DNA of 64,000 bases from Nemertoderma westbladi (taxonomy: Eukaryota; Animalia; Xenacoelomorpha). Every line of letters starts with the position of its first letter. The stretch's first letter is position 1. The notes below the pieces were generated by a model. That model made no database searches. It was not told the DNA's origin and worked only from the letters and a program-made list of their open reading frames with translations. This document shows, piece by piece, positions 8,355 through 39,182 of the stretch. The translations under genes were made by a program, and so were the position numbers. The stretch lies in NCBI GenBank assembly GCA_032718475.1, contig JAUCBJ010007030.1, positions 62,001 to 126,000 on the forward strand, in the 5' to 3' direction.

Positions 8355-9570
8355 CATACTAGAGCAAGACATTGGGGTGTGCCAGAACCCATTTAAGTTG
8401 GTTTAAATCGTATCTCGACGGACGCACACAACAGACTCGTGTAGGATGTACGTATTCCAGAACTCACAATCTGCGTTTCGGTCTGCCTCAGGGCTTGGTG
8501 CTCGGGCCAATTCTATTCACGATCTATACCAGATCTCTGTCTTCTGTGATTCGACGACATGGCTTGTCATACCACCTTTATGCGGATGACACACAATTGT
8601 ATATTGTTTTCAAGCCGGAAAATATAGAACAAGCAGTAAATGTTACCGAAAATTGCGTGAGTGATATCAATAATTGGATGACGACGTTTTTTCTAAAATT
8701 TAACACCGACAAAACGGAGGTAATGTTACTTCAATCTCGCTTTGGCACCAGATACCCCCCGCCAACGGTTAAGATAGGAAACGATGTGATTCACTGTAGT
8801 TCGGCCGCACGGAATATTGGCCTCGAGCTGGATTCCAATTTGACACTCACCAAACAAATCAAAACAACAGCATCTCCAGACTAAAACGGTACCTTGATAA
8901 ACATAACATGGAGACCTTGATACACGCCCTGGTTACCAGCAAGTTAGATGCGAACAAATCACTCTACTACAAAATCTATGGAAAAACTACAATATGTGCA
9001 AAATTCGGCAGCTCGTCTACTTTCCGGGGTAAAAAGACGGGATCATATTACCCCAATCCTTAAACCAATTGCATTGGCTCCCGATTAAACGTCGCATCGA
9101 CTATAAGATAGACGATGTTAACATATAAGTGTCTGAACGGATGCGCCCCAGCCTACCTGACTGAATTCTTAATCCCGTATACACCGGCTCGCGAGCTACG
9201 TTCAAGTCCTGTGGTCTACTCGTAGTCCCTAAATTTCGAACAGTCAATTACGGGAAACGCGCATTCTCAGTATCCGCTCCTACTACATGGAACGCACTCC
9301 CCCAACACATTCGTGAATCCGAATCGCTATTCTGTTTCAAAAAGTCATTAAAAACTCAATATTTTAATCTGGAATACAATAACTATGTAGAAATCAGAAA
9401 CTTTGTTTGTTTTTTAAATATGATTTTAGAATTTTTACTGTTGTTTTATTTAAGTACGATCTAGAATTTTACAGTTTTTATAGCCGCTGTTGTTATTTAG
9501 ATCGCGCCTTGAACAAAAACTCCGATAAGGCGCCATACAAATATAATATATTATTATTATTATTATTATT
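8355..9570 (+). mobile_element. 5'-truncated L2-clade LINE (RT C-terminal part)
   Basis: GLPQG.VLGPILF, YADDTQLY, DHITP.L..LHWLP motifs, frameshifts, (ATT)n tail near 9547-9570. Confidence 0.88.
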
Positions 9571-11960: not shown

Positions 11961-12568
11961 AGTATAAGCCTCATTTTGTATTTGTAGTAGCCTGCCAATT
12001 AAAGCTGATTTTGTTTGGGAGTACACTGAGTCTTGTGACTTTTTCTTCTAAGTTACAGTAAGTAATGAATTAATTAATTAATGTTTGAATGGTTAAAACA
12101 TTATTGATGTATATACATTACTTTGAGTGTAACTTGAACGAAGAGGTGGACAGTTGAATAGTCTTCTGAAGCTTGATAGCTTCTTTCGCGGTGCGCTAGC
12201 ACTGCCATCTAGTAGTAGTAGTAGTAGTTGCCAATATATTTGTATATTATTTTGTATATTGTTTACAATATTTCAAAGTAAAGTTACCCAGTTCGATGTT
12301 TGCCAATCATTTTAGATGGTTGATTTCTTCTTAAGTTAATTATTATCTGATTAAAGTAACTTGATTTCAGTTGGTTAATGTGCGAATAAATAGTTTGGCT
12401 TAAATTGTCCAGGAGAATTTTAGCCAATCGGAGACAAATAATATAAACAGGATCGAATGTGTTTTCAATGTCAAAGGAAGCAGTATATATATAATATATA
12501 TATAATATATATATTGTGGATTTATTGTTTTTTGATGTTGGATGATTATTCTGATGTTTGTCACCCAT

Positions 12569-13746
12569 TGTTCGCGCTTTTAGACCTTTAGCAGTTTAAC
12601 CTGCCAAATTTAGGTGTCTTTTAGGTTATAAATCGACTTTAGCCTATGACAAGTATTTGATACACTACATTAGCCGAAGCCAGCCTATGCGCGACCATTC
12701 ACCCGCTGGATATACCCGGGAGACTGGATTCGGAAGCTCTGACCTTATTGCGGTGTAGGCCTACTGTATTATTCGATTGATCGTTAATATATAATCTCTG
12801 ACAAATATTATTCACTTTCGGGAAATATTAACAGTTCCTTTAGGACGTGGCACTCTAAGTATGTAAACAGAGTTATGACTTACACTAAACACAACGGGAT
12901 GGCTATTGATTCACGTATAAAGCGCATTCTTTAGGAGATGCTTTGTTATCTATCACACTCATGCACACTACCGCACAATGCTGCACACCGATCTGCCGAC
13001 CTTCACTAATTTTAGTCACATATAAAGAGAACAGCAACTGACACCTGTAGGGCCTATGAAATAGCATTAAATTCACTCCAAAACCACTTTAATGTAAGTC
13101 GCAATTGCTATATGTAACCGGTCTCTCACCTTCAGTATATCAAGAAGATTGGGGTTTTATGGTTATTTATCGATATTTTCCAAATATAACAATATTCCAT
13201 CAACTGATACAATTAATAACTGACAGTAAATAGCAGTAAAATAATGTGGTGAAAGGTACGGCGAGTCTGGTATGCCAGGTATGGCAGACTGAGTTGAGTT
13301 GATAACAGTTATACGTTTCTATAATCAAAGCCTTTCTAATGTTTGGCTAAAGTCTGAAACACAGAATAATTCCACAGCCGATGTTCTAGGCTTAGGAAAA
13401 AAGGTAAACATAAACCATAATGCATTGCGCGATTTCCTGGAGGTTTCTGTACAAATAAAATGAAAATCACTCTGATTGGTCGACCGAACAAAGAACAGAG
13501 AAAAAGTTACACGTGTACATATCAGCTGATAGATGTCGTCATCTTGAACTACACTGTATCAAGAGTATTTGGCGTATTGCGACATAAAATTGCTAGTTAT
13601 GTCCGCTAAAGTACACATACAGAAGAAATGGCTTTTTATGTCCACTAAAACACCTACAGTAAGGAAATGGCTTTTTATGTCCGCTAAAATACCTACAGAG
13701 TACTTTGCGGGGAAAATGACTAGCTAATTCCGCAAAAGCCTTTACA
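12569..13746 (-). repeat. 3' LTR (1178 bp)
   Basis: ~99% identical to 21535-22711 (about 12 substitutions + 1 indel counted by eye). Confidence 0.97.
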
Positions 13747-13820
13747 CCGCTCCCAATGGGATTTAATTCTATAAAATATAAAAAATCACAGTTTCTAAAA
13801 TATAAAAATACTCTAAACAG

Positions 13821-14519
13821 TTAGTCTTTCTTGCGAGGACGGCGTTTACACAGTTTTTTGAGGCTAGCAAGAGTCCTTTTCTCTTTGGGGCGAGCCACTT
13901 TACTAGGAGGGCTATAACTCCTGGGTGAAGGGTGTAATACAATTGCATCAGAAGGTTTAGGATTACGGTCGGTGTATCCGCCGGTCGAGGTACCTGGTTG
14001 ATCGATATCAACTTCAGTGGAGCGAGGTCTAACAGCCTTTAGAGCGCGTCTTAGGACAGCAGCTCCTACGGGTCCCTGACGAGTCGTCTGAACGATAGCG
14101 GTAGGTGGACCGTGAGTGGTGAGAAACTTCCTCGGTTTAATGGTTCTTTCCAGCTCGCGTTCTCGGGCTCGATATTCGTAGGGCCATCGATGTACTTCCT
14201 GTAAATCAGGATGCGAGTTGATGAACAAATCGCCATACTCCGGGTCTTGACGGATGAAATTGATCAAATGGTATGAATTAATATCGTTAGGATTGATGTT
14301 CCTGAGATATTTTCGAACAAATTTGGTGGAAATACACTCACCAACACGCTTCATTAGTTCGTAACTCGGTGTGCGTGTTTTTTGTTCAACAGACGCGAAT
14401 AGATAAGGATGGAACGCGTAAACTCCTTCGTAGGCGCGTCCAGGGTAATAGCGATGGCGTGACTCACAATGTAAATCCGCATTCGCTTCCCAAGCTCGGA
14501 TGTAGCGCAGGGTAATCAT
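13821..14519 (-). CDS. Orphan ORF within LTR element (232 aa, basic NLS-like C-terminus)
   Basis: ATG ORF ending KKLCKRRPRKKD, 75 nt before the 3' LTR. Confidence 0.6.
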   Translation of the reverse strand: MITLRYIRAWEANADLHCESRHRYYPGRAYEGVYAFHPYLFASVEQKTRTPSYELMKRVGECISTKFVRKYLRNINPNDINSYHLINFIRQDPEYGDLFINSHPDLQEVHRWPYEYRARERELERTIKPRKFLTTHGPPTAIVQTTRQGPVGAAVLRRALKAVRPRSTEVDIDQPGTSTGGYTDRNPKPSDAIVLHPSPRSYSPPSKVARPKEKRTLASLKKLCKRRPRKKD

Positions 14520-14594
14520 CTCATCTACGCTTTCCAGATCGCGGTTAAAAGGTCAATTAAAACTGGCATGTCCTTTAAGTTGACAATGATGGCA

Positions 14595-14819
14595 TTAAGT
14601 CATAAATTGGGGGCAGACTGCGAAAATGTGCGAGTTATTGAGTCTGCAATACGCACAATAGATCTCCATCATCGGTTGTTCATGGAAATAGGAGCAGGGT
14701 ACGTCTGAGTCCATAGGGGTGAAATGATCTCTCGATGCGCATAATCGGCAACGTTTTCGAGAAACATAGTTGGCGTGCCGTAATCGTATGCGGTGAGACA
14801 TTGTGGACCTTGATACCAT
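14595..14819 (-). CDS. Small Cys/His-rich ORF with zinc-knuckle-like motifs
   Basis: CRLCASRDH...C and CAYCRLNNSHIFAVC; overlaps the end of the 308-aa ORF in another frame. Confidence 0.45.
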   Translation of the reverse strand: MVSRSTMSHRIRLRHANYVSRKRCRLCASRDHFTPMDSDVPCSYFHEQPMMEIYCAYCRLNNSHIFAVCPQFMT

Positions 14820-15595
14820 ACCAAGACGTAGTCGTTATCGCTGCTCCGGGGCGCTGTAGGCTGAATCTCCTCAGATTCTAAGCATATCGGTTCGTCTTCC
14901 AATTGCATAGTTGAGGTAGGTGCGGCTGTCTCCTCAAGCGAACCCACTGTCTGAACTTCCACGATAGAATAACCCGTGGGTATTCGAGGTCTTTGTATAG
15001 CAGATGAATGTAAGTTCTGTATACAAACGTCCTTGAAAATGGCAAATCCCGCGCTGTCTAACTTCTCAGCAGCTGAGTCTCTTAGGCTGAGCTTGGTCAG
15101 AGCGCGGTCCTTGAACTGACTATCAACGTTACGGAACGGAGTCAGAAAGCGCCTGAAACATTCGAAGCGGATGAATTTATTGTGTTCATCTAGCTTGGCG
15201 AGTTTGGTTCCAAGTATTAAGGGATGGGCGCGTATAGTACGACTGCACACATCGGCCAGCCAACCGGCAAGTGCTGCGTTTTCAAAGATCGTGTATATAG
15301 CTAAGGAGGGACGAAGTGGAACACTCATAAAGCTATACACGGCGCCAGGTGCGGTCAATGGTCCGTCAAAGTATAATCGAGAATAATGATCTCCATATAC
15401 TTGTGGGTAGTTGATAGGATTTCCAACCTTGAAATTCCATCCGTATTCTTGAAAGGCAAGATGTCCGATGGAGGTTCGTTGTACTTTAGTAATGCCGCTG
15501 GGTGTATTGGCATTCATAGTACGGAAGAAACCTCGGCGTTCTGCCCAGGGAGCAATCAGCTGAGTATCGACGAAAGGGTATGGAATGTTCTCCAT
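14669..15595 (-). CDS. Orphan ORF within LTR element (308 aa)
   Basis: Long ATG-initiated ORF with globular-protein composition; no RT/RNase H/integrase/protease motif recognised. Confidence 0.6.
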   Translation of the reverse strand: MENIPYPFVDTQLIAPWAERRGFFRTMNANTPSGITKVQRTSIGHLAFQEYGWNFKVGNPINYPQVYGDHYSRLYFDGPLTAPGAVYSFMSVPLRPSLAIYTIFENAALAGWLADVCSRTIRAHPLILGTKLAKLDEHNKFIRFECFRRFLTPFRNVDSQFKDRALTKLSLRDSAAEKLDSAGFAIFKDVCIQNLHSSAIQRPRIPTGYSIVEVQTVGSLEETAAPTSTMQLEDEPICLESEEIQPTAPRSSDNDYVLVWYQGPQCLTAYDYGTPTMFLENVADYAHREIISPLWTQTYPAPISMNNR

Positions 15596-16385
15596 GTTCC
15601 TGTCGTATGCCTAATATGTTTTCCGCCATTGATGGTAGAGAGCAGAGGAAAACTTATGTCGCATTCTGAAATATTCAGAAATACGATCTCAGTAGGAGGA
15701 TTGTATCATTCGATGACTATCTCCAAATGAATTTATCCCCAATTATTAAAGGAGGTGAACAACCAGATTTATGACACATAATGGTACCAGTTGTTCACAG
15801 ACTATCCACGTGTCCTTTCAGTCCTTGAATCACGGTTGTGGACTTAAGGAAATTATTGGTGGTTGATTATCTAATCAACGACAAGAGGGATGGAAGTTGA
15901 TATTATAAATACCAACACAATGGTACATGGACAGGAGGTGCAGACACTAATATAAGCATCCAGATCAATAGTAAGGGAAGGGGAGGTTTATTAGGAGGCG
16001 GTACGATTCATACAACGATAACACTAGGATTGGTCGATCGTCTCCCAAAGCTCCGAGCACGTTGGGAAGAGAAGGTGGGATGAAGTGCGTTGTATCTTTA
16101 ATAGCGATGTATAGAGGGATAATAGTAGTAAGGAGGAGGAAGGATATATGGTAGTATCTATAAGATACCACGATGGACATGTTTTCCATTATGTCATCAT
16201 TCATTCTTGCTCTTTAATTGCGACACTGATCACAATAATTACAGGAAGACGATGAAATAAGAGAAAATTACAGCCTCCCGAAGGAAACCGCCCGCGAGCA
16301 CCCGTGCCCCGGGGAAAACTATTCACATTATGGACCCTGGACACTAACGTATGTCTTTTCTCCAGTGGTTCTCATCTACTTGTCT

Positions 16386-16751
16386 TTACCAGCCTTCTTC
16401 CACATTCCATCTTTCGAGTCGGTTTCGAATAGAATTCTCGTGTTCTATTCTCGGTTTATCGTTCCGACTCCGCTGGGTATGATATTTAAATAAAACCATT
16501 TCCCTTTCGGTGTCTACATCGTCCGTATCGTGTAAATCGATAGGATGGCCAGTAGTTAAGAAGTCCATATACGTACCATTACGATGCGTATAGCGAGCGG
16601 TGAATTTTCTATAGTCCAATTCACGCGTAAGTTGCTCCTGGGACATTGGCGGTTCGATATAACGACCATCGTCCTCCGTAGTGGTTGGACCAGCGTCGCC
16701 GCGTATCAAGCTATCAACAAACGCTTGTAAAGGTAGAGTAGGGTTTCTCAC
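16386..16751 (-). CDS. Orphan ORF within LTR element (121 aa)
   Basis: Open frame directly after gag; no recognisable domain. Confidence 0.4.
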   Translation of the reverse strand: MRNPTLPLQAFVDSLIRGDAGPTTTEDDGRYIEPPMSQEQLTRELDYRKFTARYTHRNGTYMDFLTTGHPIDLHDTDDVDTEREMVLFKYHTQRSRNDKPRIEHENSIRNRLERWNVEEGW

Positions 16752-19634
16752 TTACCTTATTTTCCGGTGTCTTCTCTCTGGACTGCTTTAGGAGCTGTAA
16801 TTTTACCTCTCCATCTAAGAATGACATGAGATCAGCCATGGTAGGGTCTCTTCGTTGTTGTTCCATCATATATAACACTTTCTTGTCCCAGCGTGTACCT
16901 ACTCCACCCTTTGGCAAAGTTGATGCTAAGGCTCCTACAACCATAGAATTCTGGTATTCATGAGACTTACCTAACCAATCTAGTTGTCTACAGATCTCCT
17001 GAATCTCGTCAGAAAACTCTATAATCCCGCTGCTAAGAAACTTTCGGGGCGCCATTAATTTCTCATACAAATACCTAGCTATGTTATTCCTATTACCATA
17101 CCTGATGTTTAGTGTATCCCAAACTTGTCTTAATCCATCTGGATGTCCAATAAACTTTAACACCATTAACTTGGGAGATCCTTCCAAGCACTCGATGAGG
17201 AATCTAAGTTTCTCTCCGTTAGATAGCACAGAGTTCTGTATGTTATCTTTGTAATATTCATTAAAAGGTAACCATTTCATCTCATCTCCATTGAACTTGA
17301 CGATCTCTCCAACCTTTACCGCTTGATGGGCTTCGGTTCTAGCCATTTGATGCGTAAAACTTTCTTGGGCCATCGTATTATTTAATATCGAGTTATCGGT
17401 ATATAAATTTCTCGGATTATTATCAGGTCTATATGGAATATCATTGTCAACAGGTTTATAATTACCCTTAATAGGGTTTACTATAGGAGTTTCTACTTCA
17501 CTAGCAGTATAGATGCGTGTAGGCTCCACACCTTGCGCATGAAATACTTCAGACCTAACAGGTTGACACATTGTTACCGGGGTTGGTGGTATACCCTTTT
17601 GTATATTTACTAATTTATCGCGTTCTAACGCGATACTCTGCTGCACTTCTTGCAACTCTAACCTACCCTCTCTGACTGTTCTCATTAACTGCTGAACAGT
17701 TCCTTCCATCTCCCGGACCTGCTGAGATGAGCACAAACGGTGTTCCCTCAGCTGCCCGAGCAGGAGATCCATCTCCCGTCGTCCCTCATCCACCCACTCG
17801 ACCGCCGAAGCGGGAGCCGCCAACGTAGTAGCGGGCGGACGAGGGACAACGGGCACCAAATCATTAATATTTCGCTCGGAGTCCAGGACAGGAACTGTCT
17901 CAGGGGTTGTTCTGCTAGACACAGGTAGTTTAGTGCTGTGCAAAGGGAACTTAGAGGTAGGTTCTGGGAGTGCAGGTGTCTCTATCACCAAAGGGGTGGC
18001 TTCGAGAACAGGCCTAATTATTTCAGGCTCATCTACTATAGTAGGGAGTCTTTCTATTTTAATAATTTGGTCTGTGATAATAATTAGGTTCTGTACTACC
18101 TAAGTCGGTGCTAGCTAGTTGCCTTCTCACGGCGGGGGGCAAATCAGGCAATTTCTGACGGTGAGGCATTCTTCTACGCCTACTTAGACGAGATCTATTT
18201 CCTCCGCCTTCAAGATCGGTGGTATCGCCTTCATCCGATGATGTAAAGCCCTGTCTTTTGGGAGTAGATTGACTCATCATCTGCATTTGACTAGCTGTTA
18301 ACTGTTTATTTATGCAGTCTTGATTCTCTTGAATATTTTCCAACTCTAGTTGGGTAGTCTCTTCAGACGCTCTCCGTTCTGCTTCTGCCACTTTTCTTTC
18401 CGCTTCTGCCGCTGCCACTGCCGCTTTTCTTTCCGCCTCTGCTGCTACCACCGCCGCTTTCTTTCTGTCTTCTATACGTTTTTTCTTTACTTGTTCTTCT
18501 TGGAATCTAGCGATGTGGAGGCGTTCATCAAATTTAGCTTGGTTCGCAGCTAACATTTCCGCATCTATTGAGTCCAACACAAGCTTGGCTCCTTCACTAT
18601 TAGGGCAAAGTCCAGCCAGCCGTCTCCTCAACTCTTCATCACCTAGAAATCTTTGATAGTCTGACAGATAGATGTCAATAGCGTCCCTCGTCTGCGGTTT
18701 CTCTGCCGTCGCTTCGCTTTCCACTTGAGAAAAGGTAGCGTCTGTTGATTCTCGATGGGTTGAGCGCTCAGCCAGCTGAGATTTCCACTGGGCTGTTCCT
18801 TGAACCTTGAGACCCACCCGCTGGAACCAAGTCTTTACGGCAACTTGCAACGACGTGTCTTGTCTTCTTTTCGAAGCTTCCTCAAAGGCCGATAGGATTA
18901 GTCTGATTCTTAGAATTCTTTCTCTAACTTGATAAAGCAGCTCTCCCTGCTCTTGAGGTCCTTGGGGTTGTCGAAACAGTTGTTCCTCTAATCACTCCAA
19001 AGAGCTGAAGAATCCCTGTACATATCCTGCTGCCAACCTCTTCCACACAGCTGGATCACTAGTGTCTTCTGTCACTCCCATCCTGTGTATGTCTTCCCAA
19101 GCAGCTTCCGATAAGTCAAACGGGAGTCCGGGTCCGGGGAAGTTCCATTGCGACTCGACAATAGACTTCAGTTCCTCTCTTGTGTATCCCGCATAACTAT
19201 CCTTGGTCGATCGCTTACTTCTCGCCCAATCAATTTGGTGTTCCTCCACCGCAATCAATACCCTAGTGAGCTGCAGGAAGGATGAGAAGGGGATCCGAAT
19301 AAACCGCATCTGCCATCTTTGCTCCGCGCTCGGGTGTCAGCTCTACCGTATCCGAACTACTGGAGCTGTCGGGCCGCTGAGAAATAAGTTCTCGGCTCGG
19401 GTGTTGCTGCTGTTTAACAGCTGCTTTTTGGTCACGCTTGACTTGGGCCCGAGTGCCTATGATAGACCTACGGTGTTGGACTAGCCTAGGGTCTGATACT
19501 ACTACTGGAGGGATGATCTTTCTTACAGTAGGAGGTGAGTTGAACTTTGGTCTCACACATTCCACACTCCTGTCTGGGTCACAGATGGTTGTATCTAGGA
19601 GACTGTCTGACAGGTTTTGCTTTGTGTCAGACAT
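16714..19634 (-). pseudogene. Disrupted BEL/Pao-type gag
   Basis: ORFs 19634-19263, 19309-18059 (one in-frame TGA at 18992-18994) and ~18060-16714 join through two frameshifts; coiled-coil region, then KFNGDEMKWLPF...EKLRFL..CLEG.P...WDTLNIRYGN, resembling the Pao gag/DUF1759 core. Confidence 0.75.
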
Positions 19635-19759
19635 GTTTGTTTGTACAGTTGAATGCCTACTGCTATATTACAGTTAAAGCAAGTCTAGTAATTCAGGATC
19701 AACTGTTAGCCTAGTAATTAATTACCGATATCGTTACTCTATGTAACGTGATATATATA

Positions 19760-20030
19760 CAATATATTAGAATACCGGTATACACTTATAGTATATATAT
19801 AAGTATTATTACAGACTAGGTTTGTCACAGAATACCGGTATATAATTTCAGCGCAAATATATATAAATATATAATAAGCCTATCGTGAATACTGGTATAC
19901 AACTTACACTTATAGTATATAAGTATAATTATGGACTAGAATTAATTACAGAATACCGGTATATAATTTCAGCACAAATATATAGAAATATATAATAAGC
20001 CTATCGTGAATACCGGTATACAATTAGTTT
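19760..20030. repeat. Tandem duplication in the LTR element leader (AATACCGGTATA motifs)
   Basis: Two ~120-bp blocks each with repeated GAATACCGGTATA. Confidence 0.75.
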
Positions 20031-21534
20031 AGAATAATTGAATTTCTGAATTTTAGAGTTACTTGGTTACTTTACTTTACTTTATTACCGTTATTTAAGC
20101 AGTAGTCCAACTGACATTCAGACCTAATTGTTGTAAGACAGGCCTACTATTTTATAAATCGGTTTGAGTTGATTTATAATATATATACCCGTTTAATGGG
20201 TTTTTGTCAATATTTGAAATAAATGTTATTTTTTCTGGGAAAGAGTCACTACACAGAAGCTGTACGCTCTCAGTGAAGTGCTACTTGTTGGACACTAAAA
20301 CAAATAATTCTAATTTGCCTAAGTTACTTAATACGACAAATTACGTACAATACGGGGTGAGATTACAATCTCTAAATAAACACAAAAATTATACGTACGA
20401 ATTTTTAGGGTAATTTTACAAGAAGTCTACAAACCAGCCTAACAAGGGGTTAGAATTTCTGGTTATTACAAACGGACAGGATACTACGGTATTTGAAAGT
20501 AATAAAGCATTAGTAAATATACTGCGTTGTCCAGATAGGAAAAATACCACCGTCTGACGACTTATAGCCGTAGCGCTATAAGTACTACGTTATGTATCAC
20601 GGAGTGTTCCTACCTAGAATTTAATTACCGCGGCCTACAAGAGCCAACGTGCCTATTAACCACTTTACAACACAAATATACTGCCTACACACTAATTACC
20701 TTCGGAAAGCACTGTATACTAAACCCTAAATTAGGTACAAGTACTTATACAACAAATAACCAGCAGTTAAAAATACTTGAACAGCTAAAAGAACCACGGT
20801 ATCTGCCGGAGTGACCAAAGCATAAAATCTCCAGTCTTTACCTACGCCAAACAGCCCTGATGTAGTACCGGGGTTAATTTAACTATAACGGTATATATAA
20901 CAAGCACAATTACTGTAGGAATAAACTTGGGGGTATGAATGTTGCGAATAATCGCATAAACTCTGAATAATAAATATTACGCTACCCTTACAGACTACAC
21001 AAACAAAATACAGACCAAACGCTGGCAGACTACTATCAAGCCTAAATAAACTACAGTATATGCAGACTCCGAAATGGTTAGTTAGTATGCATTCTAACCG
21101 AGTAGTACGACTTATTCTTTCGGGGGGATTTACCTTACAGCACTGGATGCCCACCACATTCCTAACTAGTACTTTATCGGACATATACTCTACACACACT
21201 GCAATCTCTTCAGACTTAACAACAGTCAGACAACAGTCCAGCCTACAAATTACCTGTACAATCTGAGCGGGCTTACACGTCTTCTGCTCAATATTAACTT
21301 ACAATTAAATAGAACTGACAGAAATAAATAAGCTCCAAAAGAAACAAGGGGTGTACAGTCCCTAATCTCTTAAACAGCCTACCGGTATACAATATCACAA
21401 TCGAAATAATACTAATACCTGTACTGCTGTAAGTACCGGTTCGGGTGGTTAGGCAGTCAGGCCTACTGGTTACCGGTCGACCGGTACTTTAATCTTTATT
21501 GCCTACGTCGCAATAAAGATCCTATAACTGTTAT

Positions 21535-22711
21535 TGTTCGCGCTTTTAGACCTTTAGCAGTTTAACCTGCCAAATTTAGGTGTCTTTTAGGTTATAAATC
21601 GACTTTAGCCTATGACAAGTATTTGATACACTACATTAGCCAAAGCCAGCCTATGCGCGACCATTCACCCGCTGGATATACCCGGGAGACTGGATTCGGA
21701 AGCTCTGACCTTATTGCGGTGTAGGCCTACTGTATTATTCGATTGATCGTTAATATATAATCTCTGACAAATATTATTCACTTTCGGGAAATATTAACAG
21801 TTCCTTTAGGACGTGGCGCTCTAAGTATGTAAACAGAGTTATGACTTACACTAAACACAACGGGATGGCTATTGATTCACGTATAAAGCGCATTCTTTAG
21901 GAGATGCTTTGTTATCTATCACACTCATGCACACTACCGCACAATGCTGCACACCGATCTGCCGACCTTCACTAATTTTAGTCACATATAAAGAGAACAG
22001 TAACTGACACCTGTAGGGCCTATGAAATAGCATTAAATTCACTCCAAAACCACTTTAATGTAAGTCGCAATTGCTATATGTAACCGGTCTCTCACCTTCA
22101 GTATATCAAGAAGATTGGGGTTTTATGGTTATTTATTGATATTCTCCAAATATAACAATATTCCATCAACTGATACAATTAATAACTGACAGTAAATAGC
22201 AGTAAAATAATGCGGTGAAAGGTACGGCGAGTCTGGTATGCCAGGTAGGGCAGACTGAGTTGAGTTGATAACAGTTATACGTTTCTATAATCAAAGCCTT
22301 TCTAATGTTTGGCTAAAGTCTGAAACACAGAATAATTCCACAGCCGATGTTCTAGGCTTAGGAAAAAAGGTAAACATAAACCATAATGCATTGCGCGATT
22401 TCCCGGAGGTTTCTGTACAAATAAAATGAAAATCGCTCTGATTGGTCGACCGAACAAAGAACAGAGAAAAAGTTACACGTGTACATATCAGCTGATAGAT
22501 GTCGTCATCTTGAACTACACTGTATCACGAGTATTTGGCGTATTGCGACATAAAATTGCTAGTTATGTCCGCTAAAGTACACATACAGAAGAAATGGCTT
22601 TTTATGTCCACTAAAACACCTACAGTAAGGAAACGGCTTTTTATGTCCGCTAAAACACCTACAGAGTACTTTGCGGGGAAATGACTAGCTAATTCCGCAA
22701 AAGCCTTTACA
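21535..22711 (-). repeat. 5' LTR (1177 bp)
   Basis: Direct repeat of 12569-13746; short tandem repeats near the U3 end. Confidence 0.97.
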
Positions 22712-22989
22712 CCCATCACAGCTTCGACTAAAATGTGATGTATTATACCGGTGCCAAAAATTTAATTTAATGATATAGTATTCGGTCATATAATTTACCA
22801 AGAAGTTGGAAGAATACTGCAATAATTAATTATAACCTTTGTGAGATCAACTTTGAATGACCTACTTAAAAATATACATACAGTTCATCAGAATAGTCAA
22901 GATCGGTAGTAGTATTTGACATATCAACTCTAAGGTTTTACCCAGGAAATCATATCCATCCACCCTTCTTTGTTCGTCAAATACCTTCT

Positions 22990-23804
22990 TATCTGCACTT
23001 ACATATAGTTTATATTATATACTTACATATATAGTGAATCTACACTTACATAATATTCATCAACACTTACATATAGTTTATCAACACTTATATATAGTTT
23101 ATCAATACTTACATATAGTTTATCAACACTTTCACATAGTTTATCAATACTTACATATAGTTTATCTACACTTACATATAGTTAGTTTATCAACACTTAC
23201 ATATAGTTTATCAACACTTACATATAGTTTATCAATACTTACATATAGTTTATCAACACTTACATATAGTTTATCAACACTTACATATAGTTTATCTACA
23301 CTTACATATAGTTAGTTTATCAACACTTACATATAGTTTATCAACACTTATATATAATTTATCAATACTTACATATAGTTTATCAACACTTACATATAGT
23401 TTATCAATACTTACATATAGTTTATCAATACTTACATATAGTTTATCAACACTTACATATAGTTTATCAAGACTTACATATAGTTTATCAACACTTACAT
23501 ATAGTTTATCAACACTTACATATAGTATATCAATACTTTCATATAGTTTATCAACACATACATATAGTTTATCAACACTTACATATAGTTTATCTACACT
23601 TACATATAGTTTATATACACTTACATATAGTTTATCAAGACTTACATATAGTTTATCAACACTTACATATAGTTTATCAACACTTACATATAGTATATCA
23701 ATACTTTCATATAGTTTATCAACACATACATATAGTTTATCAACACTTACATATAGTTTATCTACACTTACATATAGTTTATCTACACTTACATATAGTT
23801 TATC
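22990..23804. repeat. 21-bp minisatellite (~38 units) derived from the CUB2 exon/intron junction
   Basis: Minus-strand unit GATAAACTATAT|GTAAGTGTT; the first unit is the real exon end and donor. Confidence 0.97.
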
Positions 23805-23962
23805 AAAGTATTCAGTGTGAAACGCTAGGAAATCTACTCGAACCCGGTTTCCTGCTGGAATTGTGATGTGGTACCAGCATACTTCGTTATTATTATAGTC
23901 ATTTGGAAAGTTTATGGATGTAATATAACCATATGTTGAGGTGAGATCTTGACCACCACACA
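23793..23962 (-). CDS. CUB2 N-terminal half exon (CGGQDLTSTYGYITSINFPNDY...FLAFHTEYFDKLY)
   Basis: ttgcag acceptor, gtaagt donor, classic CUB motifs. Confidence 0.93.
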
Positions 23963-27179: not shown

Positions 27180-27556
27180 ATCCATGGTGACCTCTATATT
27201 AATAATATTATTCTAAGTAGAAATGCACTAATCTCAAAAGGAATTATTATCTGCATTTGACACACTAGGCTTAACTACCCATAATAAGTCTGAACCAACG
27301 AGATTACAGTAAGTAGAAAATCAGCAACATTATTAGATCTGGTAAAACATAGAACACAATCTCGTCCAAGAATGTAAGGTTTTCCCATTCTTCTACTCAG
27401 ATTATGAGCACACGGTACTACTGTAACTCTCAAACAAGCATAGCTCCAATACATCAGAAAATAAGTGGATAAACTTCAGGGACTTTAAAAAATTCAACAA
27501 TTCTGCTTTCTTAGCCGATATTAACAGTGTAAATTGGGAAAATATATATCTGTCAC
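27180..27556 (+). mobile_element. Degenerate LINE fragment left of the Gypsy insertion
   Basis: EPTR...DL and F..FNNSAFLADINSVNWE-like text, typical of the end of the LINE endonuclease region. Confidence 0.45.
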
Positions 27557-27584
27557 TGTAACAATTACTCCCCCTAAATACAAA

Positions 27585-29327
27585 AGCTATTAAGGGCTTG
27601 TGATCAGTTATTACTTTAAATGGTCTTCCATGCAGGTACGTATGAAATTTATGCACGGCCCATTTCAAAGCCAAAAATTCCCTATCTGTTGTGGAGTATC
27701 TTTTTTCTGTTGGAGTCAGTTTATGAGAAGCATACGCTATGGGTCTTTCATCAATTATTGGTTGACATAATACAGCTCCAATCCCCACTGAACTTGCATC
27801 TATTTCTAAGACAAATGGGGCCTCAAAGTCTGGCAAACGCAATACCATGTGTTCATCCTTTAAACATGCTTTCAAATGGGAAAATCCTCATTTGCATTCA
27901 TCATTAAATTTAAACTTATTTGATGGTAAAGTTTGAGCTGTATATAGTGGTGCCGCAATAGTTGCATAATTATGAATAAATTGTGAATAGTAACCGCACA
28001 TACCAGTGAACGTCTGTAATTGTTTTGGTGTTTTAGGTTCGTTATAATTCAGAATACCCTGAATCTTCTCCGGATCCGTCTTCATTAGGCCATTTTCAAA
28101 TATAAATCCAAATATTTTTATTGATTGTTTTCCAAACGAACATTTTCTTGGGTTTAGTTTCCATCCATCTTCGATTAATCTCGAGAAAATATTTTCCAGC
28201 ATATCAATATGTTCAGGAACATTAGTTGATGGAACTACAATATCGTCTAAATATGGATCAGGTAATTTCCTTGAACTTTCTGGTAGGTATTCATCTGTTT
28301 TTCTAACAGTTTGACGTATCTCTCTTTGAAACAATGGAGGACAGCGGTGAATGCCATATGGTGCTCTTGTAAATTTGTAAAATCCATTTCCTGCTTGAAA
28401 GGCAGTTTTGGGGCGAACTTCAGGATTGATCTTAATTTGCCAATAGGCTGATTGTAAATCCAATGTACTAACAACCGGACAACCTGATAATTGGTCGATT
28501 ATATCCGCTATGCGTGGTAAAGGATATTGGTCATGGTCAATGAGTTCATTAAGTTTTGAATAGTTCACACAAAATCTCTTTTTTCCTCCTGGCTTAGGAG
28601 CCAACAGGGCTGGGAAAGCCCATGGTGATTTACTAGGCTCTATCACTTTCATATCCAACATTGTTGTGACATGTTCCATGATTTCTTTCTCCTCAACTGC
28701 ACTCCGCCTATAAGCACGTTGAAATATCGGAGTATGATCTCTAGTCTCAAAATTAAGTTCGGCATGTTTATAACATCCTATATCTTCTGGAGAATTACTA
28801 AAGGCATCAGAGTATTTCCACAGTAATTGTGAAAGTCTACGTCTTTCATTCTCATTCCAATGAGCCGGTAGGCTGAACTGAGATAAAAAGTCTTCTTTCG
28901 AAAGTTCCTTTTTAATTGAAGCAGTTTCTGCAGGTAAACTAATTCGGGATAACCCAAAGTCGATAATTGCTCCACATTTATACAATATATCTCTGCCAAT
29001 AATAACACCGAAACGATTTGAATCAATAATACCGAACCAGTGATTACAAATTTTCCCACCAAGTTTAAATTCCAGCATTGCATATCCTAATATTTGAAAT
29101 GGATTTCCAACCAATGCCCTAAGTGTTCTATCTCCACAGCGAGTTTCTGTTGCAAATGATAACAATTGGTCATCATTCGGAATTAAACTAATTTCTGAAC
29201 CTGAGTCAATTAAAGCAGTTTTATGTTTACTCATACCACCTTTAACAAACTCAACAGAAACTGAACTGGCTGTCAGGGAACTACTGGACTGCGTTAGTTC
29301 GTCCCTGACAGCCCCGACAAGTTTTTT
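27585..29327 (-). pseudogene. pol: Gypsy pol (protease, RT, partial RNase H), frameshifted and truncated
   Basis: LIDSGS, SPWAFP, LDLQSAYWQI, YLDD, DASSVGIGAVL, TDHKPL; frameshift near 27880. Confidence 0.92.
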
Positions 29328-30010
29328 GACTTCACACAGTATCGAGAAATATGCCCACGTTGCCCACATGTGTAGCAAGTTAAATCCTTCCAACAGCGTT
29401 CAACAGTATGCCCAACTTTATTGCATGTTGAACATTTGAGTTTCATTCTTGATTCACTCCTATCGGTTGAAAAGTTCCTTCGACCGGTAATTCCTGCTGC
29501 AAACACGGAAGTTTCCTCGGGATCCGGAAGTTGTTGGATGAACTCGGCAACATCGCGCGAAGTTGCCTTCGGATTAGTCGCCCTCCATGCGAAAACTGTG
29601 GCTTTAATACTCGTCGATACGCTGTCAACTAAACGCTGAACAACCGCGTCGTCGCCGAGCGAAAGATAGTACGTTAAAAATTTCAATGTAATTAAACCTT
29701 TCTGGACTTCAGAGGGTTTCTCTAATTTAAACTTCGAGAAATCAACACTGGGCGATACCGGTTTCTTGCACTTATACCATTCCTTTTCCAGTGCTTCGAT
29801 TACAGTTTCAAAAGTGGAACGTTTATCAACGAGTTTGTACTCCATAGTGATAAGCAAATCTTCGGATACAAATTGTGGAAGCCATGTTAGTTTAGTTTCA
29901 CCATCCTTGGAATCAATATTTTTACGAGCATAGTAGGCGTCTAATTGTCTCTTCCACGCGTTAAATGATATGGAATCCACACTAAGATATGGTAAACTAC
30001 CCGGCGACAT
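29294..30010 (-). CDS. gag: Gypsy gag with two CCHC zinc knuckles
   Basis: CSTCNKVGHTVERC and CYTCGQRGHISRYC. Confidence 0.9.
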   Translation of the reverse strand: MSPGSLPYLSVDSISFNAWKRQLDAYYARKNIDSKDGETKLTWLPQFVSEDLLITMEYKLVDKRSTFETVIEALEKEWYKCKKPVSPSVDFSKFKLEKPSEVQKGLITLKFLTYYLSLGDDAVVQRLVDSVSTSIKATVFAWRATNPKATSRDVAEFIQQLPDPEETSVFAAGITGRRNFSTDRSESRMKLKCSTCNKVGHTVERCWKDLTCYTCGQRGHISRYCVKSKNLSGLSGTN

Positions 30011-30229
30011 TATAAACTGTTATATTTACACACTGCGCCAATGTTAAGATAACAGGTACGGTACTGAAGTAGGGTATCTAAAAGTCTGTCTTTCTCACAT
30101 TCCTACATTCCGCATTATATTCAACTAAAGAACAATAATCTCAAATCAAATCTCCCTCCATACACAAATAAGGCTAAAGTAATTCACAACAACTAATTCA
30201 CTACGTTACAGGGGCGTTATACACGGACA

Positions 30230-35199: not shown

Positions 35200-35560
35200 A
35201 TTAATGATAAATTTTCCACTGAACCCTAACGCCAATAGTTTAATCCATAATGCACTTATATCTACACTATAAACGGCTTTACGCAGATCAATAAATGCAC
35301 AATAAAGTTAATTGCTATTGCCCGAAAGAAAATGATCGATCAAGGATTTTAAGATTAGCATTTGGTCTACAATGGAATAGCCTGGTCTGAAACCACCTTG
35401 CGACTCCAATGTAATACCGAATGCGTCGGCCAACCATTGTAGACAACGATTTATTATAGATGTAAACAATTTACCGAAACACTCTATAGAGTAAAAGCTT
35501 TGCACCTTTTTTTTTAACAATGGGGCAACAATTCCTAATGCTTTCTTGTGGGGAAGTTAT
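35200..35560 (-). mobile_element. LINE RT fragment
   Basis: GIVAPLLKK, CFGKLFTSII, ESQGGFRPGYS..DQ, YCAFIDL.KA. Confidence 0.8.
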
Positions 35561-36538
35561 GAGTCGCTATTTAGATACAGCAAATGGACGAGTTGCGTCC
35601 AACCAACGATTCCGTGATTTGGACCCCTCCCACCCTCAATCTACGAATCCATTTCCCATTCTGCAGGCACCAGTAAATAACCTTTCTAAAATACTCCTCA
35701 ACCAGGACCAGAGAGACTTGCTCGGATTGGGGTTCACTTTCATTCCATACCATGGTACCGCACCCTCTGATGTTCTAGAGGCTAAGATTGATGTAGCCTC
35801 AGCAGCAACGAAAATTAGAACTAGATTTCGAAAATTGGTTAATCCACCTATGGATGAACAATCAGCAACGCCCCCTCAAACATCTGGCCAACTGCATCGT
35901 GCCACCGAAATCCCTGTAGCATCAAACACTTCTGCTACTCCCAAGGTTAGTACTGCCACGCAACTATCTCATACTCGTTCGCAACCGACAACGGCCCGCA
36001 AAAAACTATTCCCAGCCGCGAATACAGATGCTTATGAACCAACACCCCTTGTTGAAGTAATACAAGAGCTCAACAGAGCGAATCAACAGCCGGCTCCACG
36101 GACCCGACCCCGGGTAGAGTGCAGTTTGCACCCAGATTTTCCTTTGCAACTTGACCGCCGAGCTGGAGTTCTCATTCCTGACACACCTTCTTCGCGCACC
36201 CGTTCGAGAACAGCACAGGATTCAGTTAACTACAATCTGCGAGGTAAGAGTAATTCTAGACTTAACGCCATCCCGCAGTCACCCCCTATTGCTGTTAAAC
36301 CTCCTGATCCCCCTCACTTTAGCCATCCCCGTTGGGTAGCGTCATCTGTAGACAGCGTTTCTGTTGAGAATATTATTTCTGGCTTGCACAGAGCAGTGCG
36401 AAGGGTCAATGTAGATAAACTTAATGAGGATGTACGCCCTAATATCACCCCAGCACAGCAGTTGGCTCTCAAACAGCTCCGAAATAACAAGAATTTAGCA
36501 TTCCTTAAAGGTGACAAAACTGCTAATATTATTTTTTA

Positions 36539-38398
36539 TTGGATAAATCTGCTAAGGAATATGAGATCCTTCGAATTTTGGGTGATAAGAAAACATATGA
36601 GAAACTACGCAAAGACCCTACTGCACGATGTCGTGTTGAATGCCGATCGTTATTAGATTCCCTTGCTATTGGGAACCAACGGCTTCGCCATCACCTCTTC
36701 CCTAATACCTTCACTACCGGCCATATCTTTATAACTCTTAAAGACCATAAACCACGTGACGAATGGGTAACCCACCCTAATGGTGCCCTAATCCCAAAAG
36801 GTAGACCTATTATATCTAATACGGACGCATTTTTTAAACCCTTATCCAAAATGATGCACTACTACCTGCACCCTTTAGTTACTACTGCCGATAACTATCT
36901 AAAAAGCTCTTTGGATCTCAAACAAACCATGCCTACAACAACTAATAATTCCCATTTTACTTTAGTTACTATTGATGTAATCGACATGTTTACCGCCATC
37001 CCTCATGAATTGGGTATTGAGGCTACCATGCATGCACTTTCGGAGGATCCTACGTTACCTGAACGTTCTATTTTTACACCAACTCAACTCGCAGCAATTT
37101 TACGGTTTCTTTTATACCACAACTTTTTCTGTTACCAGAATATGTACTACCTGCAAATCGCAGGAGCACCTATGGGCGGTCACCACAGTAGTGATTATTC
37201 TATAATCAGTTCGTACAAAGTACTCAAGAGGGCGTTAACTATTTCGCTACGGACTCCTTCATTCTTTCGTACTCTGGTGGATGATAGTTTCGCAATTTAC
37301 GATGAGCGACTAACTGATCAGTATTTCGAGTTCATGAAGACCGCATTCAATTCAGCGTGCAGGAATTTATATAATAGTGATGCCATCCAATTTACAATGG
37401 AGTACTCCCATGCTAGTGTCGACTACCTCGATCTAACGATAGCTGCTAATGCCTACACCCTTAGAACTCGTTTATTTAGAAAACCAATGGCTAATAAACT
37501 ACCTATTATGTACTCTAGTTTCCACCATAAACCTACGTTACGGGCAGTGGTGAAATCGGAAATTTTGCGTATTCGCCGTTTAACTGACTCAAACCATTTG
37601 TTCACATGTTATAAACACCAGTACCTCGAGTTGTGTGAGAATCGAGGCTATCCGCTGGATTTCCTCCTCTCCCTCCATGCATCAAACCCAACACCTCTTG
37701 GTCCAGTGCCGATCACGCAGCAGCCGTCTTTACCAACAGAGGGGGATGGTCCATCAGCACCCCAAAATTTGAAGACTACATCGAATGGGCCAAAATACAC
37801 CTCTATATATCTCCCTACGACCCCACAGTTCCTGCCTGTCCTAGCGCCCGTTATCCGCAAATATAATGCTGACTTGCGTTCGCTAGGTATTAGTGTCCAA
37901 ACGGTCCCGCGTAACCTCCCATCGTTAGGTAAACTGTTGATCACCAAGTCCGAGCCAACTCTGCCTCTTGGTAATCACTCTTGCAATGGGCCTCGTTGCA
38001 AATGCTGCTCGGCCGTTCTAGACCAGCGCCGGACACCATGGGGTGACCCCATCCATGGGAGATTTAACTGCAAATCATTTAATGTGATATATTTTATCAA
38101 ATGTAAACTGCATCCACACTTGTGGTATCTTGGCCAGACAGAACAGCGTTTACATGAGCGCCTCCGAGGTCACCGTAGTGCCATAAATGAAGCAGCTGTC
38201 AAGGGGCTAGGAGTCGATTTATCGAGTCCTGAAGTCTTGCTACTGCAACACTTTGTTATTTGTGGGATCGGTGCGCTCAATATTACATGTTCTAAAAGGT
38301 TTACTAACCACGAGCGTAGGATTCATTTTGAAGCGGTTCTGATTAACTTGCATCGCCCCCCACTTATCACTGTAGTTCCCCGTATTGGTCTGTACTAA
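36539..38398 (+). CDS. Penelope RT + GIY-YIG endonuclease (continues the 35520-36538 frame via a frameshift in a T run)
   Basis: KGDKTANIIF / LDKS is split by a frameshift at ~36531-36540. Confidence 0.88.
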   Translation: MDKSAKEYEILRILGDKKTYEKLRKDPTARCRVECRSLLDSLAIGNQRLRHHLFPNTFTTGHIFITLKDHKPRDEWVTHPNGALIPKGRPIISNTDAFFKPLSKMMHYYLHPLVTTADNYLKSSLDLKQTMPTTTNNSHFTLVTIDVIDMFTAIPHELGIEATMHALSEDPTLPERSIFTPTQLAAILRFLLYHNFFCYQNMYYLQIAGAPMGGHHSSDYSIISSYKVLKRALTISLRTPSFFRTLVDDSFAIYDERLTDQYFEFMKTAFNSACRNLYNSDAIQFTMEYSHASVDYLDLTIAANAYTLRTRLFRKPMANKLPIMYSSFHHKPTLRAVVKSEILRIRRLTDSNHLFTCYKHQYLELCENRGYPLDFLLSLHASNPTPLGPVPITQQPSLPTEGDGPSAPQNLKTTSNGPKYTSIYLPTTPQFLPVLAPVIRKYNADLRSLGISVQTVPRNLPSLGKLLITKSEPTLPLGNHSCNGPRCKCCSAVLDQRRTPWGDPIHGRFNCKSFNVIYFIKCKLHPHLWYLGQTEQRLHERLRGHRSAINEAAVKGLGVDLSSPEVLLLQHFVICGIGALNITCSKRFTNHERRIHFEAVLINLHRPPLITVVPRIGLY

Positions 38399-39075
38399 AA
38401 CATGTGAACTTTGTTTTGTATATTCTACTTAGGATTTTGTATTAATCAGTTTGGTTTTATTTTATATCTTATTGTTTTGCTAACTATGTGGCTCGTCCCA
38501 CATGCCCGCCTTAATGATAATTTCACCTCCAGTCATACAGCTGCTATTTGCTTTTTGAATAGCTGGCCCCTCTGGATATTTACCCTATGGCGTAGTTAGT
38601 ATTACTCAATCATTCTGTTAGTTTTATTTAATTAATTTTAAAGATTTTATTACTGCTTTTATTTCTGAGGTTTTTATACACATGTCATTCGTATACACTA
38701 TATCACTGTTGTTTTATTATTTTATCAGCCTTTATTTGTTTTTATAGATATTCTACTTAATAGCAGGATAGGGTACACCATTGGTTTAGTTTTTATTTAC
38801 TATTAATTTTTTAAAAGTTTTTAACATTTTAATACCTTTATTTTAAATTTTGATTTGAGTTAGTTTTGGTGCATTATGAATTTCCGATATAATTTCAAAC
38901 CATGCTCAACTTCTTCTACCGGTCTGCCACTTTACACAGCTAATATCTTTATTAAAATAGTCATAACTACTGTACACTATACAGTACCATAACGGTATCG
39001 GTTTTGTATATATCTTTGTAGGTTTTGAATTGGTTGTTTTAGTTAAATTATATTAATATTGTGTTTAAAATAATA

Positions 39076-39118
39076 TACCACTGAAGACGCGCGGGAAGCG
39101 TGAAATAGCTATATGGTA
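39076..39118 (+). ncRNA. Minimal type I hammerhead ribozyme in the Penelope pLTR
   Basis: TACCA-CTGAAGA-C-GCGC-GGGAA-GCGT-GAAA-TAGCTA-TA-TGGTA. Confidence 0.85.
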
Positions 39119-39182
39119 AACTAACAATATTTTATATTAGCCGTGGCTCAAGACCCTTACTCGTCATTAATATTTATAATTT

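What the first reader, a model, noticed from the sequence alone, without database searches (positions are those of the whole stretch)
21492..22279. No tRNA primer site: the 12 nt after the 5' LTR are complementary to a site inside the LTR (possible self-priming)
Seen: right after the 5' LTR the sense strand reads ATAACAGTTATA (21534-21523), not the TGG expected of a tRNA PBS. Its exact complement TATAACTGTTAT lies in the LTR at 22279-22268. A perfect 11-bp hairpin (21492-21520) follows 2 nt later. Known: S. pombe Tf1 and related chromoviruses prime reverse transcription by annealing the 5' end of their own RNA to the PBS. Inference: self-priming in a BEL-like element, which I do not know to be described. 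Caveats: the 12-mer is AT-rich and quasi-palindromic, and a TCAGT initiator-like motif at 22258-22254 could put the start site just downstream of it.
Basis: partly seen in the sequence, partly recalled or inferred. Interest (0 to 1): 0.75.

Follow-up and report, generated by a model that had tools for sequence, protein, structure and literature searches.

The report
Self-priming signature in BEL-like retrotransposon
A young jumping gene with a BEL/Pao-type capsid gene has no standard tRNA landing site; the site instead pairs perfectly with 12 letters of its own terminal repeat, and family copies diverge sharply right behind those letters, so it likely starts DNA copying with a piece of its own RNA, as the yeast element Tf1 does.

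Summary
Observation confirmed. The element is 10,143 nt long, on the minus strand, with 98.9%-identical LTRs, a 5-nt target duplication, BEL/Pao-type Gag and no pol. The 12 nt after the 5' LTR pair perfectly with LTR 22279-22268 (9 of 20,000 shuffles; best of 7,758 internal positions); no TGG follows the LTR. Two new supports. (1) Both PBS-flanking segments pair with the LTR downstream of the 12-mer (z -3.9, -4.2), giving the three-duplex 'pretzel' topology described for Tf1; the 11-bp hairpin is a competing fold. (2) In family contigs from four DNA runs, 22267-22298 shows no variant at 2% or more, then cover collapses: 18 of 25 listed pieces end at 22265-22269, followed by a C-rich tract that differs between copies and holds the TCAGT motif. 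That boundary is where primer cleavage and strand transfer would fall. Not shown: the start site, any RNA, compensatory change, the host tRNA set. Best reading: Tf1-like self-priming with RT supplied in trans (0.7). Ten open-access searches found no report for BEL/Pao; this scan noted the same signature earlier in other genomes, without the variable tract.

The parts
12569..22711 (-). Whole LTR element, 10,143 nt, non-autonomous (no pol)
   Evidence: tblastn with 150 Gag-related proteins hits the element only at 16.5-17.5 kb
21535..22711 (-). 5' LTR, 1177 nt, TG...CA
12569..13746 (-). 3' LTR, 1178 nt, 13 differences from the 5' LTR
22712..22716 (-). Target-site duplication ATGGG, upstream copy
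12564..12568 (-). Target-site duplication ATGGG, downstream copy
21523..21534 (-). Primer-binding-site position, 12 nt directly after the LTR's terminal CA
   Evidence: single-stranded between two stems in the local fold
22268..22279 (-). Putative self-primer, exact complement of the PBS (duplex -11.4 kcal/mol)
   Evidence: no variant at 2% or more in four runs
13302..13313 (-). Copy of the 12-mer in the 3' LTR
22218..22266 (-). Copy-variable, C-rich tract that starts right behind the 12-mer plus one C; holds the TCAGT motif
   Evidence: 20 C in the 50 nt 22267-22218 against 17.9% in the rest of the LTR, binomial p 2e-4, not corrected for choosing the tract
21707..21726 (-). LTR segment a, predicted to pair with the leader just 3' of the PBS (pretzel outer duplex)
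   Evidence: -26.2 kcal/mol
21501..21521 (-). Leader segment a', partner of a; also most of the 11-bp hairpin
   Evidence: z -3.9, 0 of 300 shuffles
21648..21660 (-). LTR segment b, predicted to pair with the U5 end (pretzel inner duplex)
   Evidence: pair probability 0.96-1.0 for the outer helix
21538..21552 (-). U5-end segment b', ends 3 nt before the PBS
   Evidence: z -4.2 for 21558-21535 against the LTR
21492..21520 (-). Perfect 11-bp hairpin (-14.5 kcal/mol), alternative fold to a:a'
22282..22289 (-). TATA-like TATAGAAA (one mismatch to a recalled TATAWAWR consensus), one of 13 such sites in the LTR
16714..18099 (-). Gag-like ORF piece with DUF1759 (E 1e-13); no CCHC knuckle in any sense frame of the internal region
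18059..19667 (-). Three upstream ORF pieces (134, 114, 310 aa stop to stop) separated by stops or frame changes; no Pfam match above cut-off for those scanned
14669..15610 (-). Accessory ORF, 313 aa, no family
13821..14552 (-). Accessory ORF, 243 aa, no family above cut-off
13747..13754 (-). Short purine-rich run GGGAGCGG before the 3' LTR (possible polypurine tract)

Best explanation
This pol-less LTR element with BEL/Pao-type Gag has a primer site that pairs exactly with 12 letters of its own LTR, and it likely primes reverse transcription with that piece of its own RNA, Tf1-style, using an RT inferred to come from an autonomous partner. Steps. (1, inferred) Some transcripts start at or just upstream of 22279. 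(2, predicted) The U5 end and the leader pair with LTR segments b and a, holding the PBS open between two stems; the 12-mer pairs into it (pretzel). (3, inferred from Tf1) The partner's RNase H cuts the RNA just behind the 12-mer and frees a 3'-OH that sits on the first base after the LTR. (4, inferred) RT copies about 730 nt of U5-R to the new 5' end near 22267 and transfers to the 3' LTR. (5, inferred) Untemplated or slipped bases at that transfer point are now and then fixed, which produces the copy-variable C-rich tract seen behind the 12-mer. Shown directly: the boundaries, the complement, the absence of TGG and pol, and the conserved-to-variable boundary.
For: Complement: 12/12, zero offset, 9 of 20,000 shuffles, unique among 7,758 internal positions. 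Read as a direct repeat the two sites match only 10 of 12; the two differing positions are the ones that pairing needs (sequence). Pretzel: a' against the LTR z -3.9 (40 shuffles; 0 of 300), b' z -4.2; of 127 control 24-mers from the internal region 1 reached -3.9. 21660-21430 folds at z -6.15, 0 of 200 shuffles, with the PBS unpaired; sense z -7.0 against antisense -3.2. Family: no substitution or indel at 2% or more in 22267-22298 among 163, 108, 90 and 1 contigs laid; X1 summed depth 78,362 (22271-74), 59,306 (22267-70), 10,841 (22263-66), 1,242 (22259-62); X2 and X3 alike; 18 of 25 listed pieces end at 22265-22269, 9 at 22267; loose ends there are unlike each other. One X4 contig has 14 listed substitutions in 22219-22264 and none listed in 22265-22298. 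The tract is C-rich and not G-rich (20 C, 7 G of 50), unlike what copying a cap would leave (inference). [quoted passage not shown]
Against: No start site was mapped and no compensatory change between the two 12-mers was seen; invariance says nothing on pairing. The 12-mer is only the end of a 32-nt invariant block, so its conservation may be promoter conservation, and variants near contig ends can be clipped. PBS variation was seen only through 40 of 416 variant rows. The conserved block ends one base past the duplex (C22267), not flush with it. No TATA-like site sits about 30 nt upstream of 22279; the nearest (22289) points to a start near 22260. In nested folds the primer duplex wins only when the RNA is cut at 21480 (p 0.94); with longer RNA p is 0.01-0.02 and forcing it costs 3.3-3.6 kcal/mol, though these folds cannot hold the pseudoknotted pretzel. 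a:a' against hairpin shifts from 0.97-0.99 to 0.39 with fragment length. At 21642 the family-majority letter (97% of X1 depth, also in the 3' LTR) would break one pair of an inner U5 stem unless its partner also varies. Summed contig depth is not a copy count. The host tRNA set could not be searched.
Confidence: 0.7

Rival explanations
1. The RNA starts at about 22266, so the variable tract marks the U3/R border and the 12-mer is the last piece of U3. The copy in the 3' LTR pairs with the PBS, circularises the RNA and, after a cut behind it, primes from the 3' end; RT then has to jump with little or no homology, adding bases each cycle.
For: The same complement and boundary. A homology-poor jump would explain frequent insertions better than a long R match. 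No TATA-like site fits a start at 22279.
Against: No precedent in the papers read. 22289 lies only 23 nt from 22266, short for TATA-directed initiation (recalled range about 28-33). The tract is not G-rich, as cap copying would make it (inference). The pretzel duplexes match the Tf1 arrangement.
Confidence: 0.1
2. The two sites are copies of one palindromic protein-binding or RNA-dimerisation motif (Myb/Ovo-like TAACNG, recalled; or a DIS-like or GalEa CHS-like site), and priming is by something else.
For: The core 11 nt are a palindrome around one base. Fungal GalEa elements have a palindrome plus hairpin in place of a PBS, with no LTR complement (PMC5445492 passages). The LTR site lies in a conserved promoter block.
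Against: The centre base and the 12th base are complementary, not identical. The heteroduplex (-11.4) beats both homoduplexes (-6.4, -5.9). A binding site gives no reason for variability to start at its edge, and leaves the element without a primer.
Confidence: 0.08
3. A tRNA fragment or other small host RNA primes at this PBS, and the LTR match is secondary.
For: Half-tRNA priming exists in Ty1/copia lineages (PMC6317226 passages). The host tRNA set is untested: no genome is held and no tRNA gene lies in the window.
Against: No TGG, so intact 3'-CCA priming is excluded. It does not explain a 12/12 LTR match at 9 in 20,000 that coincides with the variability boundary.
Confidence: 0.07
4. Chance match in AT-rich DNA, or a PBS that decayed or was rearranged in this one copy.
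For: The 12-mer is 10 of 12 A or T and quasi-palindromic; the copy's gag region is in pieces.
Against: Shuffles keep composition. LTRs are 98.9% identical, so the RNA was copied recently. Two divergent contigs span the LTR-PBS junction (X1 record 4, X3 record 10) and the PBS bin is well covered. Flanking duplexes and the boundary are separate coincidences.
Confidence: 0.05

Closest known systems
Tf1/Tf2 of Schizosaccharomyces pombe, Tj1, Tosmo1-3 and the Tf1/sushi group (Ty3/gypsy): self-primed reverse transcription
   Same: PBS directly after the LTR's CA, complementary to 11-12 nt inside the LTR; two flanking duplexes between PBS-adjacent sequence and LTR sequence downstream of the primer.
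   Different: Gag is BEL/Pao-type (DUF1759), not gypsy; no RT or RNase H of its own; predicted R-U5 of about 730 nt; quasi-palindromic primer; a competing 11-bp leader hairpin; a copy-variable tract behind the primer, which the passages read do not describe.
Belpaoviridae (BEL/Pao, Semotivirus)
   Same: DUF1759 Gag whose best hits include Pao-peptidase polyproteins (6 of 18 scanned carry PF05380; all 18 carry DUF1759); TG...CA LTRs of 1.18 kb, within the 0.2-1.2 kb of the ICTV profile; 5-nt target duplication.
   Different: The ICTV profile gives an 18-nt tRNA-Arg or tRNA-Gly PBS and tRNA priming (PMC8742986, whole text); neither fits. No pol, no zinc knuckle; best Gag hits only 21-37% identical over the matched stretches.
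TAR lineage (Houba, Osr-1) of plant Ty1/copia and Tcn1 chromoviruses
   Same: Self-priming predicted from PBS-LTR complementarity alone, outside Tf1 proper (PMC6317226 passages).
   Different: Other superfamilies and hosts; they show that self-priming arose more than once, which makes a BEL case less surprising.
Conserved Hairpin Site of fungal GalEa copia elements and bivalve biv-TRIM
   Same: Palindrome and hairpin where the PBS should be.
   Different: GalEa has no LTR complement by the authors' own search; here there is a perfect one.

Membership tests
Belpaoviridae (BEL/Pao) | Gag with BEL/Pao-type capsid region | tested here: met
   DUF1759 E 1e-13; hits include Pao polyproteins. No CCHC knuckle found.
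Belpaoviridae (BEL/Pao) | pol with PR-RT-RH-IN, RT in the BEL clade | tested here: not met
   No Pfam pol domain in 7 internal ORFs; no tblastn hit outside Gag with 150 proteins, some full polyproteins. Filed as a BEL/Pao-derived non-autonomous element, not as a member.
Belpaoviridae (BEL/Pao) | LTRs of 0.2-1.2 kb, TG...CA, flanked by a target duplication | tested here: met
   1177 and 1178 nt, ATGGG duplication.
Belpaoviridae (BEL/Pao) | 18-nt PBS complementary to the 3' end of tRNA-Arg or tRNA-Gly | tested here: not met
   No TGG within 55 nt of the LTR end.
Belpaoviridae (BEL/Pao) | Polypurine tract of about 10 nt before the 3' LTR | tested here: inconclusive
   8-nt run with one C.
Tf1-type self-priming (mechanism) | PBS adjacent to the LTR, perfectly complementary to about 11 nt in the LTR | tested here: met
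   12/12.
Tf1-type self-priming (mechanism) | The complement is at the 5' end of the transcript | not testable with these tools
   No raw RNA reads were offered. Indirect only: variability starts behind it.
Tf1-type self-priming (mechanism) | Three-duplex pretzel | tested here: met
   By prediction only: a:a' z -3.9, b:b' z -4.2, primer:PBS -11.4 kcal/mol; the pseudoknotted whole was not modelled.
Tf1-type self-priming (mechanism) | Compensatory change between primer and PBS | tested here: inconclusive
   LTR site invariant at 2% or more; PBS variants not fully displayed; no sister family with DNA found.
Tf1-type self-priming (mechanism) | RNase H cleavage behind the primer | not testable with these tools
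   The element encodes no RNase H; the partner is not in the window.
Tf1/sushi group (Ty3/gypsy clade) | Gypsy-type Gag and Pol, chromovirus RT clade | tested here: not met
   BEL-type Gag, no Pol. It works like Tf1 but is not a member.

The most novel reading that the evidence does not exclude
A high-copy BEL/Pao-derived family self-primes through a Tf1-like pretzel evolved independently, and each round of reverse transcription can add a few bases at the primer-cleavage junction, so the tract behind the primer grows from its primer-side end and keeps an ordered record of past transposition cycles in every copy.
Probability: 0.35. Interest if true: 0.85.

Novelty: new variant of a known kind. 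Interest (0 to 1): 0.62.

Why it matters
The ICTV profile describes BEL/Pao replication as tRNA-primed and poorly understood. A self-primed lineage would extend tRNA-free priming to the third LTR superfamily, with an RNA fold convergent on Tf1, and would mean that a partner's RNase H can process a primer in trans on a pol-less RNA. Pipelines that need a tRNA PBS would miss such families. If the variable tract is a replication scar, it locates the primer-cleavage or strand-transfer point from DNA alone and could serve as a natural lineage barcode that orders transposition events.

Tried and rejected
No whole genome is held, so full copies, sister families, the autonomous partner and host tRNAs could not be searched. 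No RNA holder listed; X5 (guessed RNA, organism B, small share) gave only contigs and no cover at 22223-22411, which is not used. Relatives with DNA: none in metagenome contigs by protein (143 pattern matches, 0 confirmed) or by the junction pattern (0), none in viral contigs (8 matches, 0 confirmed); alignment A1 was too divergent to search with. The search for homologous proteins gave 0 of 445 candidates. Splice-made primer (lead from earlier notes): no GT-AG junction in the LTR gives 10 or more nt complementary to the PBS; rejected here. A long stem from the tract to 21972-21910 has z only -1.5 and involves the variable tract; not counted. Rfam: one chance-level hit, E 0.78. ARAGORN: 0 genes. 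ESM Atlas for the 313-aa ORF: only scores under 0.9. I recall that the Tf1 primer begins with similar letters; searches did not find the sequence, so it is not counted. Literature: 10 searches; in the listings and the passages read none reports self-priming for BEL/Pao or a variable tract behind a self-primer. Subscription papers, Repbase entries, figures and bioRxiv supplements were not seen and may hold such a report. PMC3118150 has no hit for primer, PBS or tRNA; PMC6388632 is not held.

Full report
Observation. Self-comparison of the window finds one long direct repeat pair at 98.9% identity. Alignment fixes the LTRs at 22711-21535 and 13746-12569, both TG...CA, with ATGGG duplicated on both sides, 13 differences in all. 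The 12 nt after the 5' LTR (21534-21523) are the exact complement of LTR nt 433-444 (22279-22268). The 3' end of the would-be primer lands on the first base after the LTR, the geometry needed to copy U5. Nine of 20,000 dinucleotide shuffles of the LTR give 12 nt or more, and of 7,758 internal start positions only this one does. There is no TGG in the next 55 nt. The 11-bp hairpin is real and is one of five such hairpins in 64 kb.

What the element is. It spans 10,143 nt. One ORF piece carries DUF1759 (E 1e-13). A search of 1.84 billion representatives found 347 hits at E 0.001 or better, none close; of 18 hits scanned, all carry DUF1759 and 6 carry the Pao peptidase domain. No pol domain was found by Pfam in 7 internal ORFs or by tblastn with all 150 listed proteins, and no zinc knuckle or RT motif by pattern. 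The gag region is in several pieces; whether this is decay or programmed recoding is unknown. Two ORFs of 313 and 243 aa without family follow. It is a BEL/Pao-derived non-autonomous element and must borrow RT, RNase H and integrase (inference).

RNA structure. The stretch 21660-21430 folds far better than shuffles (z -6.15, 0 of 200) and leaves the PBS unpaired between a U5 stem and the leader hairpin. Tf1 needs three duplexes: primer with PBS, and each PBS-adjacent sequence with an LTR sequence downstream of the primer (10.1101/2022.12.06.519325, passages; figure not seen). Both extra duplexes are predicted here: 21660-21648 with 21552-21538, and 21726-21707 with 21521-21501 (-26.2 kcal/mol). 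The two PBS-flanking 24-mers score z -4.2 and -3.9 against shuffled LTR, and 1 of 127 control 24-mers reached -3.9. The outer duplex crosses the primer duplex, so nested folding cannot show all three. This may be why the primer duplex has probability 0.94 in one fragment and 0.01-0.02 in longer ones, but that result also counts against the model.

The family. Seven runs were listed, all contigs, none on record as RNA. Four were laid on 20900-22760 and four, three of them the same, on 22215-22334 (X1 and X2 are one sample). The family is abundant and diverse: 16,425 contigs laid in X1, 245 variable places at 5% or more in 1,861 nt. In the narrow view only 22299-22301 vary at 2% or more; 22267-22298 shows nothing. 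Summed depth in X1 falls from 78,362 at 22271-74 through 59,306 and 10,841 to 1,242 at 22259-62, and X2 and X3 do the same. Of 25 listed pieces 18 end at 22265-22269, 9 of them at 22267. The loose ends behind that point are unlike each other, and by eye those that reach the conserved motif at 22217-22206 do so after fewer bases than this copy. One X4 contig that crosses the region has 14 listed substitutions in 22219-22264 and none listed in 22265-22298. The TCAGT motif is inside this tract: changed at three positions in that contig and at one in the X1 and X3 contigs that cover it. From the far side X1 depth falls in steps (13,365 at 22219; 2,049 at 22227; 1,150 at 22236; 482 at 22244; X3 9,093, 500, 500, 0), from the primer side abruptly. 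This is the nesting expected if bases are added at the primer-side end, but it rests on a few rows listed for another reason, and summed depth is not a copy count. The tract in this copy is the most C-rich 50-nt stretch of the LTR (20-21 C against at most 17 elsewhere) and has 7 G.

Mechanism. In Tf1 the first 11 bases pair with the PBS and RNase H cuts between bases 11 and 12 (PMC7175516, passages; the primary papers were not read). The template then ends at the base behind the primer, and that is where strong-stop DNA ends and transfers. Tf1 RT adds untemplated bases readily (PMC3185545, passage), and RTs can extend 2-nt matches that contain C or G (PMC3035444, passages). A variable tract that begins right behind a perfect PBS complement is what this would leave (inference). 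The boundary and the complement are independent observations that meet within about 2 nt in a 1,177-nt LTR. The main alternative puts the capped start at that boundary and uses the 3'-LTR copy of the 12-mer; promoter spacing supports neither start well. Tf2 shows that most transcripts may start downstream and lack the primer (PMC5341516, passages), so one downstream start would not settle it.

Against and open. No start site, no RNA, no compensatory change, no host tRNA set. The 12-mer's invariance is shared with 20 nt upstream; at the X1 average of 0.13 variable places per nt, 12 nt would be free of variants about one time in five (my estimate). The conserved block ends one base past the duplex. 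The majority letter at 21642 breaks a predicted inner U5 pair unless compensated. PBS variants were visible only through 40 of 416 rows.

Comparison and novelty. The ICTV profile (PMC8742986, whole text) gives BEL/Pao an 18-nt tRNA-Arg or tRNA-Gly PBS. Self-priming is shown for Tf1, proposed for Tj1 (PMC4600332, passages) and predicted for Tcn1 and the copia TAR lineage (PMC6317226, passages). Passages of PMC5445492, PMC6934838, PMC3601003, PMC2864245, PMC5443660 and PMC8220671 do not report it for BEL/Pao. Ten searches of the open-access library found no such report; closed papers and Repbase were not seen. This scan has noted the same signature in BEL/Pao elements of other genomes, some with a splice-made primer, which I tested and did not find here. 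Those notes are unchecked and were not used as support.

Verdict. Real feature; works like Tf1 self-priming with probability about 0.7; not a member of the Tf1/sushi group and, lacking pol and a tRNA PBS, filed as BEL/Pao-derived. New variant of a known kind, interest 0.62. The growing-scar reading has probability 0.35 and would deserve 0.85.

Noticed in passing
window 13821-15610 (-): Two accessory ORFs (313 and 243 aa) behind gag, in place of pol; no Pfam family above cut-off; Atlas leads for the first are all under 0.9.
   Followed up: partly
window 19635-21522 (-): About 1.9 kb of leader before the first ATG (19634), with an internal duplication at 19770-20023 and sense-strand folding bias at 21400-21031 (z -2.4 against +0.7).
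   Followed up: partly
window 22137 and its 3'-LTR counterpart: The only AATAAA of the LTR reads GATAAA in the 3' LTR; an ATTAAA lies at 22059. The poly(A) site is not settled.
   Followed up: no
window 21389-21531: One contig each in X1 and X3 skips 141 nt and with it most of the PBS: probably a deleted copy.
   Followed up: no
window 22475-22537: A second dip in family cover with many indels, in the U3 region.
   Followed up: no
window 27402-30019 (-): Broken Ty3/gypsy-type ORFs with zinc knuckle, RT and RNase H; no LTR pair found in 24-36 kb.
   Followed up: partly
window 35490-38398 (+): Two long overlapping ORFs, the second ending in a GIY-YIG domain (E 8e-5), with no Pfam RT hit; Penelope-like by recall.
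   Followed up: no
window 39011-41500, 49420-51136, 22989-23806: Tandem arrays with periods of 38, about 146 and about 21 nt; the last abuts what looks like a CUB-domain exon (recalled motif, untested).
   Followed up: no
window 61838-62533 (-) and 8363-8884 (+): A Sel1-repeat ORF and a short RT fragment.
   Followed up: no
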